Shown in pieces: positions 5,270-63,920 of a stretch of 64,000 bases of DNA. Position 1 is the first letter of the stretch, and every line of letters starts with the position of its first letter. The notes beneath the pieces were generated by a model. The model was not told where the DNA came from. It saw nothing but the letters and a program-made list of their open reading frames with translations, and ran no database searches. The translations under genes and the position numbers were made by a program. The DNA is from Stegostoma tigrinum (lineage: Eukaryota). The stretch covers positions 99,682,472-99,746,471 of the forward strand of contig NC_081355.1 of assembly GCF_030684315.1 (NCBI RefSeq). The letters run 5' to 3'.

Positions 5270-5495
5270 ACTGCACACCTCTAGGCACCTTCCTTGTTTC
5301 TTTGCTCCTTTTCTTGACCCAACCCCTCACTCCTTGATTCTGGAAGACCAATTCTTCCACCATACAATTCCCATTATCTTCCACCCTATCACAAACGTTG
5401 AGTTTGACTTGTCCCACCCAACCGTGGCTCAAAAGCACAAAAACATTATTTTCTTCTCAGTTCTAATGATAGGTCACAGGTCTGAAATGTTGAGT
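5270..5495 (+). mobile_element. Old PLE terminal (pLTR) remnant with a degenerate hammerhead motif
   Basis: ttctcagttCTAATGAtaggtcacaggtctGAAAtgttg at about 5454-5492. Confidence 0.5.
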
Positions 5496-38190: not shown

Positions 38191-38226
38191 CTCTCTGATG
38201 AAGGGTCTAGGCCTGAAACATCAGCT
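38191..38226 (+). ncRNA. Minimal hammerhead ribozyme motif in Neptune pLTR (two CpG-type mutations)
   Basis: ctct CTGATGA a gggt ctag gcct GAAA c atc agc; sister copies give gccc GAAA cgtc. Confidence 0.75.
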
Positions 38227-40399
38227 TTTGTGCTCCTGAGATGCTGCTTGGCCTGCTGTGTCCATCCAGCTTCACACTTTATTATCGGGGTGTCTCTGCC
38301 TTCTGGCTTCATTCTCATGAAGTCTCTCTTGGTTATCTGCCCTGCATTCATTAGTCACTTCAACGTCTGGGTGATCCTATTACCCAGCTGTGGGGTTGTG
38401 TCTATCGCCACCTATTGGTAAGTGCTTGTACCTGCAAGTAATGTCTGCGCTTTCCTAACATACTCTGTGGTTTGTTTATAATGACAGTCATGAGCCCTTT
38501 GTCTGCTGGTAGGATCATGACGTTCTTGTCTTTCTTGAGTTTATCCAGTGCCTTTCCCTCTGCTGTGTTCAGGTTGTCCTCTTTGTTCCTTCTGTGTAGT
38601 CTGGGGATTATAGTTTGTCGAATGGCTTATTGTGTTTCGTCTGTGAGTCTGTTATCCTTTTAATGTATTCAGCCACGAGGTCTGTTCTGTTCACATCTTT
38701 GTGGTTATAATTCAGTCCGTGTAATAGGACAGCTTTCTTAGTTTCTGTGAGTTGTCTGTTGGATAGGTTTCTTATCCATGTGTCCGGTTTGTGGTTGTCC
38801 TTGCCTTTGTGGTGAATCCGTTTGGTCAGTTTCTCCTGTAACTCATGTCTCTTCTTAGTTTTGGTTTTTTGTTGATTGATGGTGAAAGCCTGTTCCAGAG
38901 CTGTAGTCCGTTGCTAGTCCGTGGACTTTAGATACTAAGTTTTGACACACAATTTCTCACTCGTACCTGTGGAATCAGTTTTCGGCATCATTAATCATTG
39001 CTCATAGCATTCTGCCTCCGTGCTGTTCAGCTATTTTATATGCCTGTGAGTTGTTAAGTGGAGGTATGTATTTCACACTGTGGGGCAGTAGTACCTCGTT
39101 CCTGAGGCATTCGCGGAGGAAGTGAAGTTGTTCGCAGGTAGAGTTCAGTCGGTTGGCAAAAGATTCCCATTGTCTGGCAATTTTGGCAACCTGAGCTACA
39201 GATCTTTGCCAAAACTTTGTAAAGTCTTATATGCATTAAGTTTAAGATGATCAGATTTACAGCCTTCAATACTTTTCATCTTTTTTCCTTTTCGTAGCAC
39301 TTTTCTTGCACCACACTGCTGTCCTTAATATTTTACATACACAGGAGTGAAGAAGCTTGTTGGTTGCTGAACTCAAAGAAAGCCTTGCTGAGAGATCCAA
39401 CAATCTTCTTCTCAACACGGAGGTTAATTCTTGGCACAGAGAACTGTTTGTAGAGTTTAATGGGGATTCACAGCATCAAGATGCTGTGTGACACCTAGCT
39501 GTATAAACAACCAATCACTTTAAAGAATTCTCATGGTCATCTAAAAATCAAATCACTTCTAAACAAATGTATTACACAGAATGAAGTAAAGAATGCGATA
39601 CATGCGCGGGCTGAAGGTAGAGTATCATAAAATTATTTTAAACAATCCGTTTTTTTCAAATATATTAATCATAACAGAGATATTTAGCAACACTCCACGT
39701 AGATTTTTTCAAAGCTAGGATGTTCTCACATTCATTGATTTGACCAGTTGCTGGCTTGGTGGCGGGTTGGGGATTGTTGAGGGGTGTACACACCACAGCC
39801 TTTGGCAAAGCAGTGAGTGACAGAATGCAATTTCAGGAATTTCGCTTTCATCAGTTTACACTAATCCTGAAGCTGGTAGTCAGATGCAGAGGAGTAATAA
39901 TTGAAAATGCTGACAGCACTCTCTCAAAAACCTCACTAGTTCTGGGTTCCTTTCATTTGACCGACAGGTAATGTCACCTCAAGCCGTCATGTGGCAACAC
40001 TTCACCTTGCCACTTACATGAACATTCCAATCCATCTTTGGATTTTAGCATGTGACAGATTAACAACTTGCAATTGCCGGGACACAAATATATTTCCCAC
40101 ATTTAAATTGCACCCTCTCCCTCCATGAATACAAATTGCTCTATATGGAGACATTGATTGCTGCCTTATCATTTAATTACTTTTCGTAGGCTACTTTTAA
40201 AATATTGATTCTGAATACTATTTTCACGTAAATACAAATCTGAACATCTTATGCACTGTTTTATCTTAATTAAAATTGTAAATAAAACTATCCATTCCCT
40301 TTCTTAATTGCAGAGAATTGAATGTAGGGATTTAGAATTATCATCTTGTGCCATTTAATTTCAGGACTGCCACCAGACACCAAACTATAGTTCCAAAGT

Positions 40400-44635: not shown

Positions 44636-44770
44636 CAGCAAGAACTGCTGATGCTGGAGTCAGAGATAACACAGTGAGAAGTGGAGGAACACAGCAGGCC
44701 AGGCAGCATCAGAGGAGCAGGAAAGTTGACATTTTGGTTTGGGATCCTTCTTCAGAAATGGGGAGGGGGA
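44636..44770 (-). mobile_element. Short PLE pLTR insertion with probable 9-bp TSD
   Basis: agaactgctgatgctggagtcagagataacac…ccttcttcagaaatgg; aaataactt at 44620-44628 and 44771-44779. Confidence 0.8.
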
Positions 44771-46944: not shown

Positions 46945-47260
46945 AATAATGTCCTGGAGAAACTCAGCAGGTCTAGCATGTGAGGAAAGGAAAACCGAGT
47001 TAATATTACATATCCAATCACTTTCTTTTGGAACTGAAATGAGTTGAAATTTGATAGTTTGTATGACAAAGCGGTTGGTGAAGTGACTGGAACAGATAGT
47101 GAGGATGCCCACAGCAAGACAAAGGGAGTGCTAACGGTAGTAAAAGATACAAAAGAACAAAACAAATTACACAAAGCTGGCATGAGTAACATGTGAATCG
47201 TAGAAAACAGATCAGTTCTGCTGAGTACGAATCCATGCAAACAAAACATGAGGTGAGGAG
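46945..47260 (-). mobile_element. Old PLE pLTR fragment
   Basis: ctggagaaactcagcaggtctagcat…gagttaatatt matches the pLTR terminus also seen at 51170-51255. Confidence 0.6.
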
Positions 47261-47265
47261 ATAGT

Positions 47266-48090
47266 GAAAAGTAGAAATGCTGGAGTCAGAGTTAATACAG
47301 CGTGGAGCTTGAGGAACATAGAAGACCAGGCAGCATCAGAGAAGCAGGAAAGTTGGCGTTTTGAATCCGGAAGCTTCTTCAGAAATGGGGGGTGGGAGTG
47401 GGGGGGGGAAAGTGAGCTCAAATAAATAGGGAGAGGAGGCGTGGGGCTGGGGAAGGTAGGTGGGCTGGTGATAGGTGAGTGCAAGTAGGCAGTGGTGGGG
47501 ATTGGTCAGTGAGGTGGGAGGGGTGGATAGGTGGGAGAGAAGATAGACAGGTTGTGTCAGGTCAAGGAGGTGGGGAGGGTTGGTCATGGGATGAGGCTGG
47601 ATGTTGGGAGATTTTGAAACTGGCAAAGCCCACATTGAGGCCATTGGTCTGTAGGTTCCAAGATGGAATATGAGGTACTGCTCCTCTAGTCATTGACACT
47701 ACCCAGAAACTGGAACCTCATATTCTGCCTTGGGAGCCTACAACCCAATGGACTAAATGTGGACTTTACCAGTTTCAAAATCTCCCCACCTCCAGCCTCA
47801 TCCCTTGACCAACTCTCCCTCTCATCCCCTTCTCTTTGACCAGACTCAATCTGTCCATCTTCTCTCCCACCTATCTGCCCCTCCCATCTCACTGCCCAAT
47901 CCCCACCACTGTCTACCTGCACTCACCTATCAGCGTCCCACCTACCTTTCCCAGGCCCACCGCTCCTCTGTCAATTTATTTCTGAGCTCCCTTCCCCTCT
48001 CCCATTTCTGAAGAAGCATCCCGACCTGAAATGTGAGCTTTCCTGCTCCTCTGATGCTGCCTGGCCTGCTGTGTTCCTTCAGCTGCATAC
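47266..48090. mobile_element. Inverted pair of Neptune-type PLE 3' ends (about 400-bp arms)
   Basis: Minus arm about 47266-47685, plus arm about 47713-48090; degenerate hammerhead CTGAAGAagcatcccgacctGAAAtgt at about 48008-48034. Confidence 0.85.
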
Positions 48091-48094
48091 TATG

Positions 48095-48410
48095 AGGGAA
48101 GGAGGTGCAGGAGTGAGAGTTTTGAGCAAAATAGAGGACGCTGTTCATGCTCTGAGGTTGTTGAAATCAACATTGATTCTTGAAGCTTATAAAGTGCCTA
48201 AGAGGAAAATCAGGTGTTATTTCGCAAGCTTGCAATGGCTTCAGTGCAACACTGTAGCAGGACCAGGATGAAGATGCTAGAATTTCAGTTCCAAAGAACA
48301 ATTACTTGTCTCAAAATGTTAACTCTCTTTCACTCTCCTCAAATGCTGCCCGACCTGCTGAATTTCTCCAGCACTTTTATTTTAGATCTCAAGCATCCTC
48401 AGTATGTTGC
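48095..48410. mobile_element. Additional PLE fragments (minus GIY-YIG end, plus pLTR end)
   Basis: ttgaaatcaacattgattcttgaagcttataaagtgcctaag (minus LGTLxxxxINVDF); aaatgttaactct…atgctgcccgacctgctgaatttctccagc. Confidence 0.6.
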
Positions 48411-51120: not shown

Positions 51121-51450
51121 AAATAAAACAAAAGTGTTGTGGACGGTGGAAATCTGAAAGAAAAGCAGAAATTGCTTGCTAAACTCAGCAGGTCTGGCAG
51201 CATCTGTGGAGAGAAAGTGAAGTTAATGTTTCGTGTTAAGTGACCCTTCTTCAGAAATATTATTAGCCAGGAAAAGGCCGTATACATGTGGAAGATAGGA
51301 AGTGGGTTGGTGAAGGAGTTAGACTAGGTGGATATGGAGACCAGAAAGAGAAAGACAGGCAGACAGAATGATTGATAATGGTAAGCACAGGAAAAAGAAA
51401 AGTTGGTAATGGAGACCATAACAAGGTGAAAATGGATTGGAAAACATTTA
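51121..51450 (-). mobile_element. PLE pLTR fragment
   Basis: aaactcagcaggtctggcagcatctgtggagagaaag…ttaatgtttcg…gacccttcttcag; minus strand reads CTGAAGAagggtc…cGAAAcatt. Confidence 0.8.
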
Positions 51451-52230: not shown

Positions 52231-52344
52231 ATTAACAACAAACTTGCTGGATAGGCTGAAAAGGTCTGGCAGCATCTGTGAAGGAAGAAGCAGAGTTAAT
52301 ATTTTGGGTCTGAACTGAGGACCTGAAACGTTTCCTGGAGACAA

Positions 52345-53389: not shown

Positions 53390-55248
53390 ATAGAAAAGCT
53401 GCAGCAGAGAAAGAGGCATTCAGTCCAATTAACTTATGACTCATTCTAATTCTACTTACCAGTACCTGTTCCATAGCTTTAGAAGTACACTACTTCCGCT
53501 CTGATCCAGGTACCTTACAGATGAATTTAGGTTTTCTGCCTCAACCCACGAACTGGGCAGTGAATTGCAAGCACCCAACAACCTCTCAGTGGGAAGGTTT
53601 CTCCCCTGTGTCCACTCTTATCTTTCTACCAATCATCTTATATCTGTGCTCCAGTAAATAACCTCTCTACTTGGAGAAACATATCTTTCTTGTCCACTGC
53701 ATCCAAGTTGCTCATTATTTTGCATGTCTCACTGTAGTTATCTCTCAGCTACCTGTACTCAACGAAAAGTAATCCTAGCCTATCCAACCTTCCTTCACAC
53801 CTGCAATTTTCAACCCTGGAAACAAAGCCTCGTAAATTTTCTCTGTGCTATCTCCAGACCAACTATGCCCATCCTGCCATGTGGTAACCAGACTGTATAC
53901 AAAACACCAGTTGTGGCCTGAACAATGTCTCAAATAGTTCCAGCATTGCATGTCTGTTTTGTATTCAATATCTTACCCAAAAAAGGGAAAGGGTCCCTTA
54001 CACCTTCTTCACCATCTGACCTGCCACATTCAAATGGCTTGTGTATATCGACTCCAATGTTTCTCACGTCCTCTATGCTTTTCATTATTCCCCTATTTAT
54101 TATGCTTAGCCTTCATTGTTGCTCTCTCCAAATGCACAATTGCGCAGTTTTCCAGATATTTTTTCTCCAAACACTCAACCAAACCACTGATGTCTTCCTG
54201 CAGTTGAAAGCCATACACTTCACTATCAAATATGCAGCTAATTTTAGTATTGTCTGCAAATTTTCCAATCGTACTTCCTTATTTAAGTCCAAGTCATTAG
54301 GTATATCACAAACAGCAAAGGGCTCAACACTAAGTTCTGTGGAGCACCACTGAAAAATGTTTTCTATTCACAAAACATCCTTTGGCCATTACCCTCTGCA
54401 ACCCATGGCTTCAATTCTTCTGACCAGGCTACTATGTGTCTTGTCAAACTTTTTCTAAAATCCATGTCAGTAGCATCTGTTGTGTTACGCTCATCAATCT
54501 TTCTTCTTACTTCCTTAAAAAGATACAATCAAGTTAGTGAGACACAATCCTCCCTTAACAAACCCTTGCAACAAATCCTTGCTAACTACCCCTGATCAAT
54601 AGGCGTCTTTCTAAGTAACAGGTGATTCTGTCTCTCAATATCGATCTGACTAATTTGCCCAGGATATAAGTCATACTGGTAGGATTATAGCTATATGCCT
54701 TAGGCCTCATGCCTTTTTGAATAATAAAATAATATCACAAGCCTCTAATCATCTTGCACGTCATCTGTATCTAATGAGGATTGGAAAATGAGAATCTATT
54801 GATTCCTCTTTGCCCTCCTTTAACAGTGGAGGTGGGTATAATTACAACATTTAAAAGACATCTGGATGTGTGCATGAAAGGAAGGGTTGAGAGGGATAGA
54901 GCCAAATGCTGGCAAATGGGATGAGAGATAATGGGAACTGCAGATACTGGAGAATCCAGTATAACAGTGTGAAGCTGGATGAACTCAGCAGGCCAAGCAG
55001 CATCTCAGGAGCACAAAAGCTGACGTTTCGGGCCTAGACCCTCTGCAATTCCTCTTGTCCTGTTGATTCATCTGCCATTAAAATGGTTACCTCCAGTATT
55101 GCTCTTCTAATTATGCATATTCTATCTAATATTTCAGACTCCTTCCCTTTGTTTGCATCATCACTTTTCCTTGTGAAGACAAAGTCCTCATCGAGGCACC
55201 TGTCTACATATTCTACACATAAGCATAAATTGCCATTTAGGTCTCTGG
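53390..55248 (-). mobile_element. Old CR1 LINE (RT to 3' end)
   Basis: aattttagtattgtctgcaaa gives FADNTKI; tcaaactttttctaaaatccat is MDFxKxFD-like; aatcaagttagtgagaca gives CLTNLI. Confidence 0.8.
54824..55042. repeat. 219-bp direct duplicate of 55347-55565 inserted into old CR1
   Basis: Same length, about 7 mismatches by hand count; includes the CR1/PLE junction ggcaaatgggat|gagagataatggg. Confidence 0.95.
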
Positions 55249-55445: not shown

Positions 55446-55540
55446 GAGAGATAATGGGAACTGCAGATGCTGGAGAATCCAGGATAACAGTGTGAAGCTG
55501 GATGAACACAGCAGGCCAAGCAGCATCTCAGGAGCACAAA

Positions 55541-55576
55541 AGCTGACGTTTCGGGCCTAGACCCTTCATTAGAGAG
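55541..55576 (-). ncRNA. Minimal hammerhead ribozyme motif, core mutated (CUAAUGA)
   Basis: Minus strand: ctct CTAATGA a gggt ctag gccc GAAA cgtc agct. Confidence 0.7.
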
Positions 55577-57116: not shown

Positions 57117-57152
57117 CTCTCTGATGAAAGGTCTAGGCCCGAAATGTCAGCT
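57117..57152 (+). ncRNA. Minimal hammerhead ribozyme motif
   Basis: ctct CTGATGA a aggt ctag gccc GAAA tgtc agct. Confidence 0.7.
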
Positions 57153-59339
57153 TTTGTGCTCCTGAGATGCTGCTTGGCCTGCTGTGTTCATCCAGCTCTA
57201 CACTTTGTTATCTTGGATTCTCCAGCATCTGCAGTTCCCATTGTCACAAAAGCAAATATTGCGTTTGATTACATTAGTACGGGGTAGATTTTGTGCATTT
57301 TTTTCTGAATGTATTAATCAATTGTGAGAAAAGCTGTTCACAATTCCTCATAGGATATAGGGCATGTGAAGTCAATATGTCACGTGGGATTAGAAGATAA
57401 ATGTTATGAAAGGAAAGCGTATGGGGAAATTAACATTGCTACACACGTTTCAGTTAAAGCTTCAGTTACCAGTCAGATTAGTGCATGGAGTTTTCATAAC
57501 CTCATCAAAGGCTGGATTATATTGTTTTTGAGAGGCTACAGAGGTAATATTGAAGATTATTCTGGGTGTCTAAAATCTAGGCTATAAAGAAAGCTGAATA
57601 AAGTTAGACTTTTTGAGCAAAGAAGGACTTAGCAATTGTTTAGCTGAATACTTAATTGGTTTATAAAACTTGCTGTAGCAATTGAAACATGTTCATCCAA
57701 ATGGTAAAACAGTTAACAGTGGTGACTTCGGCATGATCATAAATTGGTCCAAGTGAGAATTAGAATGAAGAGGGATTAACAGACTTGTTGAAAATCAAAT
57801 GATCAAGCTGAACTATAAAAAAGACAGCGACATTGTGCATGTTCTTGAATTTATAAAACATAATAAGTTTAAATTAAAGGGAATGTGGTGGAAAGGAGGT
57901 GGCTGACAATGAAAACAAAGATTGGTGTCATGCATGCTGGTCAATGTCTCAATACACTGATCTCCCATGTATGAATCATCAGCTCACATCTATTGAAGCT
58001 CCACATCACTTGCAGAATCTTGCAAATTTTACACTGAAACATAATCATTCATTATTTAGAATTTCTATTTATACTATACATGTCTTATTCAGCAGTTTGA
58101 AACAATGCTTGTATATACTGTAATGCTTGGTAAAAGTAAATATGTTCAGTCTGCAAAATTCATCACCTCAAATATTTCAAATATCTTGGGTTTCAATCCA
58201 CATTTTAATTGATTTCCAACACCTTTTTGGAGCTATAACATTTCCAGACAGGAAACTGCCTGGGAGAGGAGTTCAGCTGACATTAGACACTGGTTTAATC
58301 AATTGATCATCTTGTTGAAGCATGAAGGTTTGGCGTTCTTCTCATTTCTAATTCCAAACTGGAGCCATCACTATCTGAAAATGCCATAACAGTTGATTTG
58401 TGCATTTGCCTCTACTGATTTCTGAGATGACTAGCAGCTTTCTTCATTGTCTAAGAACAATAGAAACATTGACTCGTACTGATTCTGCAATGTCAGTAAT
58501 TGAGCAAAGTATGAATTAAAATCGTGGAGTTACCTTTTCTGCAAAGACTGAAAAATTCATGTGCAGCATTTGTAAAAGGAGCAGTAAAGAAATGTATGAA
58601 TGTATTTTTCATAGAATAGAGCATTGCCAATATTTAACATTCTTAAACATTTTCTTCTTTTAGTCACCTCCTTGTATTGCTTTCCTTTCTGTGAACTTGA
58701 GCCTGTTGTGTAAGTGCTATGTTGGACTGACGTGGATAGGGTCAGAAATCACATGACACTAGTCCAACAGGTTCATTTGAAAACACAAGCTTTCAGAGTC
58801 TTAGTCCTTGTTCAGGAGTTAGTGAGAGAGGTTGTATCCTTCAGGTAGTAGCCTTCAGGACAACATCAACCACAACACTATACCATCCTGTCATGGCAAC
58901 CTCCGCAAGACATGTGAGATCATCGCCATGAACACTACCATCACATGTGGAAACACCGCCCACCACGTACACGGCAGATCCTCATGTGATTCATCCAATG
59001 TTGTCTGTCTCATACACTGCAGGCAAGAATGTCCCAAGGCATGATACATTAGCAAAACCATGCAGATGCTATGACAACAGATGAATGGACACGACACAAC
59101 ATTCGCCAGACTGGAATGTTCCCTCCCAGTGGGGGAGCACTTCAGCTGTCAAGGACATTTGGCCTTGGATCTTCGGGTAAACGTCTTTCAAAATGGACTT
59201 TGGGATAAAAAACAATGCAGAGTCACTGAGCAGAGGCTAATCGCCAAGTTCGGTACCTGTGAAGACGGCCTCAACCGGGACCTTGGGTTTGTGTCACACT
59301 ACATGTGATACACCACACCTATCCACTCTCACACATGAA

Positions 59340-60425: not shown

Positions 60426-61932
60426 CAATCTATGAAGTGAATTTATATATGCAGATACATTCTATTTGGTTCAAAAAGCACACAATCTATACACAGTCAG
60501 TCAATCTGGTCTTTTATACATTCCTACTTTAGAAATGAAGCCAGTCTGACTCCAAACTAAACCACAAACAGATTCTACACAATGTCTCACACACAACAGC
60601 CATTGTCTGACCTAAAATGTTACCTCCTCTTTACTCTGATAAAACCTTTACTTCTCTCAGGACAGTGACTTGAAAGGAATTCAGGGATTTTCATATACAT
60701 ATTAATCATTAAAACCTCCTAACTGATTGAAGATTTAACAGCATATTAGATTTATTTACTACATCCTCATCAATGGTGTAACCCTTTGACTTTTTACATC
60801 TAAATTCTGTATCTAATACTACCTTTTGCACTAACACCTGACAAAGGAATAAGGCTCTGGAAGCTTGAGTTTTCAAATAAACCTGTTAGACTATAGCCTG
60901 GTATCATATAATTTCTTATTTGAGCCTGTACTGCTTTCCTGCTGACAAATCCAAACTCGAAACATTGCCGAATTGCAGACAATGTCTCTATGTGTATTCA
61001 GTATTCTTACCACGAATCTTGCTATCCTGTTAACTTGAATCCCAGTTCATGAGATTGCAAGGAACCCAATACAAATATAAGTTCCTTCTTACAGAGCATT
61101 GTATCATCCTCTTCTATAATCAATGAATATAATCACCAGACTGATGTGAAAATGGACACTTCTACCGTCATGTGCCACAAGAATATTATTGGGACATTGG
61201 CTAGCAGTGAAAACTGGTTCAATTACTCTACAAATATTGCCCTCTGTAAGGTGTGGACTAGTGACCAGTTATCAATAACTGAGACAATTTTTGTCTGCCA
61301 ACAACGATGCAATTGGTACTTAGGTAACCGAAAAGCCTCGGGCTGGGAATAAGTTACAGAGGCAAGTGTTTAGGAAGCCCCCAACTCAGGAGGAATCGCT
61401 ATTGTCTGCAGACAAAACTTACTGCAAATCTGAAGAAAACTATTTTATATTTCTTGCAACATTTGTTGTAAGCTGTGACTTTTAACTAATAAATGACAGA
61501 TCTTTTATAAATATCCAAAACACCTTGTATCTCTCTTCAACCAGTGGAAGAAATTGGAGAAAAACAACTGAAGAAAAGTAGTGGCCAGCAGAAAAGCCAG
61601 AAGGATCAGCTTAGTGGCAGTATTAGGGAACAAAGACTGCTGAACTGTCTTTCCAGTCTCTTCCCTCTGAGTATAACCTATTTTACCCGGCTTGTCTGTC
61701 TGGGTTTATGTAAGGGGTAGTTTACAGGTTTTTGGAGGTTTAATTAATACTATTAAATGCTGACTGTTTATAACTATGTGCATGTAGCTGCAGACTAATT
61801 TCTTTTTATGCAGTAATTCTTGTTCAGTACAGAAATGTGGTCTGTGTTTTCTATCAATCTGGTATGAAAGACAGATAAGTTGGATACTTTCTAGAAACTT
61901 AAACTTTTGTGATGACTTTGGGTATAGTGGGA

Positions 61933-62163
61933 ACAGAAACAAAGTTGCTGGAAAAGCTCAGCAGGTCTGGCAGCATCTGTGGAGGAGAAAACAAAGTTAA
62001 CGTTTTGGGTCCGGTGACTCTTCCTCAGTTCTAAGGAATGGTCACTGGATCTGAAATGTTAACTCTGTTTTCTCCTTCACAGATGCTGCCAGACCTACTG
62101 AGCTTTTCCAGCAACTTTGTTTTTGTTCCTGATTTACAGCATCTGCAGTTCTTTTGGTTTTTA
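61933..62163. mobile_element. Miniature palindromic PLE-terminus insertion with two back-to-back hammerhead motifs and 15-bp TSD
   Basis: Arms 61930-62028 and 62031-62129; tail 62130-62163; ttgggtatagtggga at 61918-61932 and 62164-62178. Confidence 0.93.
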
Positions 62164-62384
62164 TTGGGTATAGTGGGACTTGATTTCCATCAAGCTATCT
62201 ATCTGTGAGCTGTCAGGTGCCCTCAGGAGGAAATCCATGATTCAAAACTGCATTATTTGCTTCCAATAGCACCACTAATACCTTGGGTGAAAAAAAAATG
62301 TGCCCTCGATAAATGTGTGTGCAGTCACAAGAAAACGTAAGCAGAACACAGATTAGGAAAACGACAAAATCATGTTCCCGATCT

Positions 62385-63920
62385 GCTGTAGTCAGTGAAA
62401 TGATGTCACCTGCCCCAACAGCATCGGGTACTCCTTTACCCACTGCCACAGATGTCAGGTCGGCCTTCTTGGGGGTAAACCCATGGAAAGCCACTGGTCC
62501 AGATGGAATCCCAGCCAGGCGCTCAGATCCTTCCTGGATCAGTTGGTGTGAGCATTTGCAAACATCTTGAACCCACTTTACTATGATATGAGGTTCTCAC
62601 CTGCTTCAAACAGGCCACTATCATCCCAGTGCCAGAAACAAAAGAATCAGGCAATGCGCTTTAATGACTACTGCCCGGTGGCTCTGACACCCATTCTAAT
62701 GAAGAGCTGTGAGAAGTTAGTCATGGTACTCGTCAACTCCAGCCTCCCATATTGCCTTGATCCACTACAATTTGTCCACCATCACAATAGGTTCACAGCA
62801 GATGCTCTCTTCTGAGCACTACACTCATCCCTCAACCTTCTGGTTAACAAGGACACCTATGTCAGACTCCAATTTATTGACTTTAGCTCCACATTTCACA
62901 CCATAATTCAAACAAAACTCATCTCCAAACTCCAAGTCCTAGGACTCTGTTCCACCCTCTGCAACTGGATCTTTGACTTCCTCACCCACAGACCACAATC
63001 AGTAAGGATAGGTGACAACACCTCCTCCACATTGGTCCTCAACACTGGTGACCCACAAGGCTGCTTTACTACACTCCTTTATCAGCTCTAACCCCATTTA
63101 CAAATTTTGTGATAACACCACTGTAGTGGGTCAGCTCTCAAACAACAACAAGACAGAGTACACAAAGGAAATAGACAGCTTAGTGACATGGTGAAAAGGC
63201 AACAATATTTCCCCCATTGCCAGCAAAACCAAGGAGCTGGTCATCAACTTCAGGAAGCGGAGTGGAGAACACACTATGTCTACATTAATGATACTGAAGT
63301 GGAGGCAGTTGAGTGCTTCAAGCTCTTAGGAGTAGCTATCACTAATGATCTATCGTAGTCCATCCACGTCGATCCTACGGTCAAGAAAACACACCAATGC
63401 CACCACTTCCTCAGAGGTCCACCATGACCACAATGACTTGTACAAATTTTTATAGATGTACCATAGAAAGCATCCTATCTGCATGCACCACAATCTGGTG
63501 TGGCAACTGCTCTGCTCGGATCACAAGAAATAACAGAGGGCTGTGAAGGCAGCCCGGTCTATCAGAAAAACCAACCTTCCTTCCACTGATTCTATCTATA
63601 TTTCCGACTGCCTCAGGAAAACAGCCAACATAATCAAAGACACCCCCCTCCAACCCCTGTTATACTCTCTTCAACCCTCTTCCATTGGACAGAAAATACA
63701 AAAGTTTGAAAACACATACCAACAGATTTAAGAATAGTGTCTTCCCCACTGTTATCAGGAGTACTAACAGGCTTCTCATATATTAGAGGTGATCTTTTTC
63801 TGCACATTCTCTGTAGCTATAACACTATATTCTGCATTTGGTTCTATTACCCTGATGTTCTTACGTAAGGTATTATTTGTCTGGTTAGACACAAAACAAT
63901 GTTTTTCATTGCATCTCAGT
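62385..63920 (+). mobile_element. Rex1/Babar-clade LINE, 5'-truncated, decayed
   Basis: VNPWKATGPDGIP, NDYCPVALTPILMKSCEKLV, LDPLQF, FIDFSS, KFCDNTTVVG (KFADDTTVVG), KTKELVINFRK, YRCTIESILS; tail aaaacaatgtttttcattgcatctcagta. Confidence 0.9.

What the first reader, a model, noticed from the sequence alone, without database searches (positions are those of the whole stretch)
61918..62178. 231-bp palindromic, TSD-flanked mini-element folded back exactly at a hammerhead core
Seen: a perfect 15-bp direct repeat (ttgggtatagtggga) flanks two ~99-nt inverted copies of a PLE terminus plus a 34-nt unpaired tail. The symmetry centre is …tcctCAG tt CTAagga…, so both arms begin at the first base of the CUGANGA box. 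The cores read CTGAGGAagagtcaccggacccAAAAcgtt on the minus strand and CTAAGGAatggtcactggatctGAAAtgtt on the plus strand, so each has a core mutation. Related pLTRs at 5454 and 31826 show the native hairpin ttctcag-tt-ct(g/a)a. Established: PLE pLTRs carry minimal type-I hammerheads, and PLEs often insert as inverted pLTRs with a 30-40 nt tail. Inference: cDNA fold-back at this hairpin generates a defined minimal unit. This could be a non-autonomous, retrozyme- or MITE-like family that originally had a self-cleaving motif on both strands.
Basis: partly seen in the sequence, partly recalled or inferred. Interest (0 to 1): 0.72.

Follow-up and report, generated by a model that had tools for sequence, protein, structure and literature searches.

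The report
Two-sided Penelope retroelement stub
This 231-base mirror-image insert is one of thousands of short stubs of a Penelope-type jumping gene, likely made when both sides of a DNA cut each copied the front end of the same RNA, so it is probably a dead footprint of how these elements insert rather than a self-spreading ribozyme element.

Summary
The palindrome, 15-bp target duplication, 34-nt tail and two mutated hammerhead cores are real. The unit is the first 137 nt of a Penelope-like element (PLE) that is very common here (5,742 exact tail junctions). It is not a self-copying family. In 91 tail-anchored copies, half are single arms and half palindromes. Centres are heterogeneous (2 of 46 have this copy's centre) and there are no arm-specific marker bases. 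Arms, single copies and some long copies all begin at the same place, 29 nt below a TATAAA box on an initiator-like TCAGTT, 4 nt before CUGAnGA. The fold point is therefore most likely the RNA's 5' end, not a ribozyme event. In 18 of 46 palindromes the tail-less arm holds sequence that the tail arm lacks, which simple fold-back cannot make. The two arms share subfamily bases (28 of 30). Best model: both ends of the staggered cut prime cDNA at the two PLE start sites (about +101 and +137) on one RNA, and the products are joined head to head. Inverted pLTR plus tail is published; I did not find this mechanism in the papers searched. The scan has reported such stubs before on other DNA of this genome.

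The parts
61918..61932 (+). Target-site duplication, left copy (15 bp). Its last 3 nt (GGA) also match element positions +101..+103 on the minus strand (microhomology at the left junction).
61933..62028 (-). Tail-less inverted arm: PLE positions +100 to +5 (A of TCAGTT = +1). Inferred to be the cDNA primed from the left target end at the first RT start site (about +101).
   Evidence: start-site reading inferred and PMC11167929
62000..62028 (-). Minimal hammerhead core on the minus strand (CUGAGGA...AAAA): GAAA box mutated, one stem II mismatch, and the 5' strand of stem I absent (AGAA instead of AGUU). Predicted dead.
62025..62034 (.). Centre TCAG-TT-CT(A)A: an imperfect 10-bp palindrome spanning the parent's initiator-like TCAGTT. 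Likely the annealing point of the two cDNA 3' ends. TT and AA centres both occur with the tail on the same side.
62027..62129 (+). Sense arm, PLE positions +1 to +103, beginning at the inferred transcription start
62027..62064 (+). Minimal type-I hammerhead on the plus strand (stem I AGUU/AACU, core CUAAGGA mutated from CUGAGGA, damaged stem II, GAAA, predicted cut after 62060). Predicted dead.
   Evidence: architecture as in PMC4209133
62130..62163 (+). 34-nt tail, PLE positions +104 to +137: the stretch between the two inferred RT start sites. In long copies it runs on into the PLE ORF region.
62164..62178 (+). Target-site duplication, right copy. It begins TT, as does the parent's continuation after +137.

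Best explanation
The element is a head-to-head pair of very short copies of the 5' end of a Penelope-like retrotransposon, likely built during a single insertion in which both 3' ends of a staggered target cut primed reverse transcription on one RNA. Shown: the 137-nt unit is the front of the parent PLE, just below a TATAAA box at -29; copies end at about +101 or +137 and start at about +1; centres differ from copy to copy; the two arms of a locus share subfamily bases. Inferred steps: (1) the parent is transcribed from the initiator A(+1), so the hammerhead is the first 38 nt of the RNA; (2) the RT/GIY-YIG protein cuts both strands 12-15 nt apart; (3) one end primes at +137 and the other at +101, on the 5' copy of these sites, so each cDNA runs off the RNA end after 100-137 nt; (4) the two minus-sense cDNAs are joined by end-joining with short microhomology, here at TCAG-AA-CTGA, repaired to TT. 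The stub lacks the upstream TATA box, folds into one long hairpin and has both cores mutated, so it is predicted to be inert.
For: 5' ends at -4..+6: 28 of 45 single arms, 22 of 46 tail arms, 31 of 46 inverted arms. TATA[AT]A at -28..-30 in 19 of 26 read-through copies. In 11 of 30 loci fetched with an ORF-front probe, a sense copy of the unit's 3' end (to +134..+137) lies 428-448 nt upstream of the probe; 3 of them start at 0/+2. Outer end of the inverted arm at +96..+105 in 30 of 46. 3' ends of 90 copies anchored at +1: 29 at +97..+105 and 32 at +134..+137. The tail-less arm reaches at least 10 nt further 5' than the tail arm in 18 of 46 (two hits look like one duplicated insertion), the reverse in 9, symmetric in 19. 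Clean AA centres with the tail on the right and none on the left: 21 of 30 loci examined of 40 genome-wide; clean TT: 6 of 30 of 97. Arm concordance at non-CpG site +51: 28 of 30 (p=2e-6), and 62 of 67 with the centre-selected sets (p=8e-13); CpG sites uncorrelated; arm-to-arm divergence 12.4% against 14.2% for shuffled pairs, 0 of 1000 shuffles as low. When one arm reads through into the 3' UTR, the other usually does too (9 of 11). Left junctions of palindromes rarely carry 3 or more extra bases (1 of 24), unlike 5' junctions of single arms (6 of 14; p=0.006). The anole PLE nicks and extends both strands, starts RT at two internal sites that bound the tail, and is predicted to be a dimer (PMC11167929).
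Against: No RNA start data: the TSS is inferred from DNA ends and promoter motifs, and D. virilis Penelope has a TATA-less internal promoter (PMC2377424), so an internal promoter in the stub is not excluded. This copy taken alone (full arms, TT centre) is equally compatible with fold-back. Its arms are discordant at +51. Post-insertion deletion across palindrome centres could create some asymmetric copies, and gene conversion between arms could add to concordance (though CpG decay is uncorrelated). 10 of 46 inverted arms end well short of +101 (+26..+84). When the 28 best BLAST hits are added, site +14 shows an arm bias (p=0.04), probably because the query carries that base. The unbiased sample is from one contig and needs an exact 28-mer. 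Only 38 of 91 copies had a TSD clear enough for the junction test.
Confidence: 0.72

Rival explanations
1. Fold-back or self-priming: one cDNA starting at the tail turns at the TCAG-TT-CTGA palindrome and copies itself, with the second arm trimmed near +101 by the endonuclease (the first reader's idea; close to the self-priming view of Arkhipova et al. 2013).
For: This copy fits it. Short 6-10 nt snap-backs at the centre occur in some single-arm copies. It predicts arm concordance. 9 of 46 palindromes have the tail arm reaching further 5'. Self-priming is the reading in print (PMC3846280).
Against: It cannot give a tail-less arm containing sequence absent from the tail arm (18 of 46). It predicts TT centres only, yet clean AA centres are at least as common. 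The hairpin has a 4-bp stem and a 2-nt loop. +101 is also the 3' end of plain single-arm copies.
Confidence: 0.14
2. A non-autonomous palindromic family (MITE- or retrozyme-like) that is transcribed and copied as a 231-nt unit with a hammerhead on each strand.
For: At least 40 near-full-length palindromic matches at 86-100% identity. TSDs flank the whole unit. Non-autonomous PLE derivatives exist (PMC8557442 passages; bioRxiv 2026.07.22.740005).
Against: No fixed centre (2 of 46 TT, 1 AA, the rest all different); no arm-specific bases; palindromes arise in both +51 subfamilies; half the copies are single arms with the same ends; no tandem arrays of the palindrome were seen in the 91; upstream TATA missing; the RNA folds into one -157 kcal/mol hairpin that buries both cores; only 4 of 15 palindromes that cover both cores keep both intact.
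Confidence: 0.06
3. Two-sided priming as in the best model, but the common 5' end near +1 is a splice acceptor, an RT pause or an RNA processing site rather than the transcription start.
For: The native sequence is pyrimidine-rich and ends in CAG before TTCTGA. In D. virilis the intron ends at helix I of the hammerhead (PMC4209133). Ends spread from -1 to +5.
Against: Many copies keep A+1 and G+2; no shared upstream exon is seen before +3 starts; TATAAA sits at -29; G is enriched just before +1 (1,873 against 2,204 for A and T together), as a copied cap would give, though terminal duplications explain part of it.
Confidence: 0.08

Closest known systems
EN+ PLE insertions with inverted pLTR, one-sided 30-40 bp tail and TSD (Adineta Pen2a, PMC3846280; overview PMC8557442; D. 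virilis Penelope, PMC2377424)
   Same: Head-to-head inverted terminal copies, palindrome at the junction, tail on one side (34 nt here), TSD around the whole, TATA and Inr-like motifs in the pLTR
   Different: No ORF at all: both arms stop at the inferred RNA 5' end. Thousands of copies allow junction statistics, which favour two primings on a sense RNA over the self-priming on an antisense template proposed in PMC3846280.
Poseidon of Anolis (PAc) in vitro, PMC11167929
   Same: Two internal RT start sites bounding the tail, about 100-140 nt downstream of the hammerhead; cleavage and extension of both strands; AT-rich targets
   Different: In the parts I read, that paper does not link two-strand extension to inverted insertions. 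Here the ORF appears to start after the tail (about +174) rather than in stem II, and junctions often show 1-5 nt microhomology.
L1 twin priming (Ostertag and Kazazian 2001; seen only as a reference entry, mechanism recalled)
   Same: Both target ends prime cDNA on one RNA, giving an inversion inside a TSD
   Different: In L1 the two cDNAs cover different parts of the RNA; here they overlap almost wholly and start at two fixed sites, which needs strand displacement or re-use of the template.
Non-LTR retrozymes (bioRxiv 2026.07.22.740005)
   Same: Non-coding, pLTR-derived, type-I hammerhead
   Different: Retrozymes are direct tandem repeats with two same-strand hammerheads; this is an inverted pair on opposite strands that cannot form the dimeric active fold in cis.

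Membership tests
EN+ Penelope-like element (parent and its insertions) | Linked ORF with RT and C-terminal GIY-YIG endonuclease | tested here: met
   Read-through copies carry decayed ORF pieces with KPADKG, YIDD and VYCIRC...YIGE motifs directly upstream of the unit. Atlas: endonuclease piece scores 0.96 to GIY-YIG clusters (Pfam on 42-51% of members); RT piece 0.91 to an RVT_1 cluster at rank 8 (32%). Pfam alone was weak: GIY-YIG E=0.25 in 1 of 4 pieces, 0 of 4.
EN+ Penelope-like element (parent and its insertions) | Same repeat (pLTR) at both ends of the ORF | tested here: met
   The unit lies downstream of the endonuclease and 428-448 nt upstream of the ORF-front probe in 11 of 30 loci.
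EN+ Penelope-like element (parent and its insertions) | Optional 30-40 bp tail, inverted 5' copy and TSD | tested here: met
   Tail of 34-36 nt; 46 of 91 copies inverted; TSD mostly 12-14 bp.
EN+ Penelope-like element (parent and its insertions) | Clade (Poseidon, Neptune or other) by RT phylogeny | not tested
   No reference RT set was at hand.
Minimal type-I hammerhead of PLEs | CUGAnGA + extra nucleotide + stem II + GAAA + palindromic 15.2/16.2 + UH, short stem I | tested here: met
   Majority bases give CUGAGGA-A-GGGUC/GACCC-GAAA-CG-UU with stem I AGUU/AACU. 45 of 86 arms covering the core keep it intact. Not met in this copy (one core mutation per arm).
Minimal type-I hammerhead of PLEs | Self-cleavage | tested here: inconclusive
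   Genomic proxy only: 80 joints at the predicted cut (+35) against 46 at +37. Of 30 examined at +35, 15 were palindromic joints, many explained by the AACT microhomology with the other arm, 11 were internal changes and none was a single arm with a TSD at +35.
Non-LTR retrozyme | Direct tandem units, each with a same-strand hammerhead | tested here: not met
   Inverted pair; single arms or palindromes in 91 tail-anchored copies.
Non-LTR retrozyme | Circular or monomeric RNA | not testable with these tools
   No run on record as RNA and only contigs offered.
MITE-like non-autonomous family | Uniform unit inherited from a master (fixed centre, arm-specific bases), terminal inverted repeats at both very ends | tested here: not met
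   Heterogeneous centres, no arm bias, and the tail makes the ends asymmetric.

The most novel reading that the evidence does not exclude
PLEs insert by obligatory two-ended priming: a dimeric RT/GIY-YIG enzyme uses both ends of its cut to copy the same RNA from two fixed start sites, and the tail, the inverted pLTR and these stubs are one signature. The stubs are run-off cDNAs that map the PLE's capped start to the first base of its hammerhead, and the RT sometimes re-aligns at that end and adds 7-nt repeats in a telomerase-like way.
Probability: 0.4. Interest if true: 0.68.

Novelty: new member of a known kind. Interest (0 to 1): 0.42.

Why it matters
The origin of PLE tandem and inverted structures is described as still undefined (PMC8557442). 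These stubs give thousands of natural end products that separate fold-back from two-sided priming and make a sharp prediction for the existing in vitro PAc system. They also place the hammerhead at the very start of the transcript, which bears on what the ribozyme is for. The single copy in this window has no likely function of its own.

Tried and rejected
Rfam at gathering score: nothing. RNA runs: no RNA holder listed, so nothing can be said on expression. Laying contigs of 4 runs on 61300-62800 gave no joint across the insert among the rows shown and no piece spanning it; the repeat swamped the table, so polymorphism and the empty site stay untested. No related genomes are held. Hammerhead cleavage as the cause of the centre: rejected, since the centre lies about 30 nt upstream of the cut. 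Cleavage-defined 5' ends: inconclusive. Selection on the core: 31 of 1003 changes against 275 of 5968 downstream, confounded by subfamily sites, not used. Cap-derived G: suggestive but confounded. One search used a pattern shifted by one base and its output was discarded (redone). Literature: searches found no paper on these palindromic stubs in sharks and none applying twin priming to PLEs (judged from listings and the papers opened); Repbase, Dfam and most subscription papers were not searchable.

Full report
Observation. The insert is as described: a 15/15 direct repeat at 61918-61932 and 62164-62178, inverted arms of 99 nt at 88% with 2 nt between them (87 of 99), and a 34-nt tail. Three of the 99 left-arm bases belong to the TSD. 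Rfam finds nothing in the window. The sites at 5454 and 31826 match this family only at the hammerhead start, barely above shuffles. I number positions from the A of TCAGTT (+1 = 62027); CUGAnGA starts at +5, the arm ends near +101 and the tail at +137. That the host is a shark is recalled and taken from earlier notes; no call names it.

Family size and parent. A genome search scored 40 of 5,696 candidates, all near-full-length palindromes, but that sample is biased to the query. An exact 28-mer across the arm-tail junction occurs 5,742 times. I fetched 93 of the first 100 listed places and dropped two (one locus hit twice, one failed alignment), leaving 91: 46 palindromes and 45 single arms. 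Copies that extend upstream run into a 3' UTR and decayed ORF pieces with GIY-YIG, YIDD and DKG motifs. The Atlas puts these with GIY-YIG (0.96) and, more weakly, RT clusters; Pfam was nearly silent. With a probe from the ORF front, 11 of 30 loci have a sense copy of the unit's 3' end 428-448 nt upstream, running on into the ORF region. The unit is thus the 5' end of a PLE, repeated at its 3' end.

Why the turn is at the hammerhead. 5' ends fall at -4..+6 in 28 of 45 single arms, 22 of 46 tail arms and 31 of 46 inverted arms, so the site is a boundary of the template, not a property of palindromes. Native copies read CCATC|AGTT (2,961 exact) and have TATA[AT]A at -28..-30 in 19 of 26; TCAGTTC fits the initiator consensus (recalled). 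TATA plus Inr-like motifs were noted in Adineta pLTRs (PMC3846280, passages), whereas D. virilis Penelope has an internal TATA-less promoter (PMC2377424, passages). The base before +1 is C 8,868, G 1,873 and A or T 2,204 times. The G excess would fit a copied cap, but 62 copies carry a 7-nt duplication of the terminus that also yields G. I infer that transcription starts at +1 and that the hammerhead, whose stem I begins at +1, is the first 38 nt of the RNA. No RNA data could test this.

Family or repeated by-product. Of 46 palindromes, 19 are symmetric within 10 nt; 2 have the exact TT centre of this copy, 1 has AA and the rest differ from one another. No site shows a left-right bias in the unbiased set (p at least 0.13). 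One site does (p=0.04) only after adding 28 query-selected hits. Palindromes occur in both subfamilies at +51. The 231-nt RNA folds into one hairpin of -157 kcal/mol (z -21), and both cores of this copy are mutated. A self-copying family is not supported.

Fold-back or two primings. A cDNA that starts at the tail and folds back can only copy what it already holds and gives a TT centre. In 18 of 46 palindromes the tail-less arm reaches at least 10 nt further 5' than the tail arm (two hits look like one duplicated insertion); the reverse holds in 9. Genome-wide there are 97 TT and 40 AA centres with a tail downstream; 6 of 30 TT loci and 21 of 30 AA loci examined were clean palindromes, and none of the 21 had a second tail. 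Both repairs of an A.A mismatch are expected if two minus-sense cDNAs anneal at TCAG-AA-CTGA. The inverted arm's outer end is +96..+105 in 30 of 46, and copies anchored at +1 end at +97..+105 (29 of 90) or +134..+137 (32 of 90). These match the two internal RT start sites that bound the tail in the anole PLE, which also nicks and extends both strands (PMC11167929, parts 1-2 of 4 read; its supplementary figures were not seen and may bear on this). The left junction of palindromes looks primed rather than patched: 3 or more extra bases in 1 of 24, against 6 of 14 at the 5' junction of single arms (p=0.006).

One template. The arms of a locus agree at non-CpG subfamily sites (+51: 28 of 30, p=2e-6; 62 of 67 with centre-selected loci; +46: 48 of 58) but not at CpG sites, and are closer than shuffled pairs (12.4% against 14.2%, n=98). 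Where one arm reads through into the 3' UTR and the other reaches +6, the other also reads through in 9 of 11 (8 loci, 2, 1). This points to one RNA, or at least one source locus, used twice.

Against my reading. This copy alone cannot be told from fold-back, and its arms disagree at +51. Short snap-backs do occur. Later deletions could make some asymmetric centres, and 10 of 46 inverted arms end short of +101. The sample comes from one contig, and empty sites were not seen.

Ribozyme. The family motif fits the minimal PLE hammerhead (PMC4209133, parts 1-2 of 4 read), which cleaves poorly and as a dimer. I found 80 joints at +35 against 46 at +37, but of 30 examined at +35, 15 were palindromic joints, many using the AACT microhomology that stem I itself creates, 11 were internal changes, and none was a single arm with a TSD there. 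Cleavage in vivo is neither shown nor excluded.

Comparison and verdict. Inverted pLTR, junction palindrome, one-sided tail and TSD are published PLE features (PMC3846280 and PMC8557442, passages); self-priming and endonuclease resolution were the explanations offered there. Retrozymes are direct tandems (bioRxiv 2026.07.22.740005, parts 1-3 of 5 read). Eight searches showed no paper applying twin priming to PLEs, within the limits of the library. The scan has eight earlier reports of such stubs on other pieces of this genome, several with a similar reading; my model was noted before that look-up. Verdict: an ordinary, probably inert PLE stub whose family gives good evidence for two-sided priming on one RNA with run-off at the transcription start. 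Interest 0.42.

Noticed in passing
L396-L425 (e.g. L399 about 1490-1525): 62 copies genome-wide carry a direct duplication of the first 7 nt of the unit, one of 30 examined with three units; about 2 expected from base composition by my arithmetic. Could be telomerase-like re-alignment by the PLE RT at the RNA end, or host polymerase-theta slippage.
   Followed up: partly
L365:1740-5645 (contains L291): A palindromic insertion of about 3.9 kb in which both arms run through 3' UTR, endonuclease and RT pieces and share an internal deletion; a 98% similar stretch lies in L367 on the same contig.
   Followed up: partly
tail-anchored copies L031-L120; window 61930-61932 and 62164-62165: Junctions often share 1-5 nt with the template (TT after +137, GGA at +101..+103), although PAc was reported to start at a site not homologous to the target.
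   Followed up: partly
parent copies L380, L388, L392: A 30-codon upstream ORF spans +57 to about +149, across both RT start sites and in frame with the main ORF at about +174.
   Followed up: no
window 51125-51300, 52234-52340, 48285-48383, 46954-47037: Older related PLE ends; 52234-52340 looks like a joint near hammerhead stem II.
   Followed up: partly
window 38226-38258, 44640-44737, 48023-48071, 54974-55018, 55458-55541, 57152-57237: Ends of other PLE-like families with a similar 3' part.
   Followed up: no
L048/L049; L061: A double-tailed palindrome followed by a partial repeat of itself, and two near-identical asymmetric insertions 2.3 kb apart.
   Followed up: no
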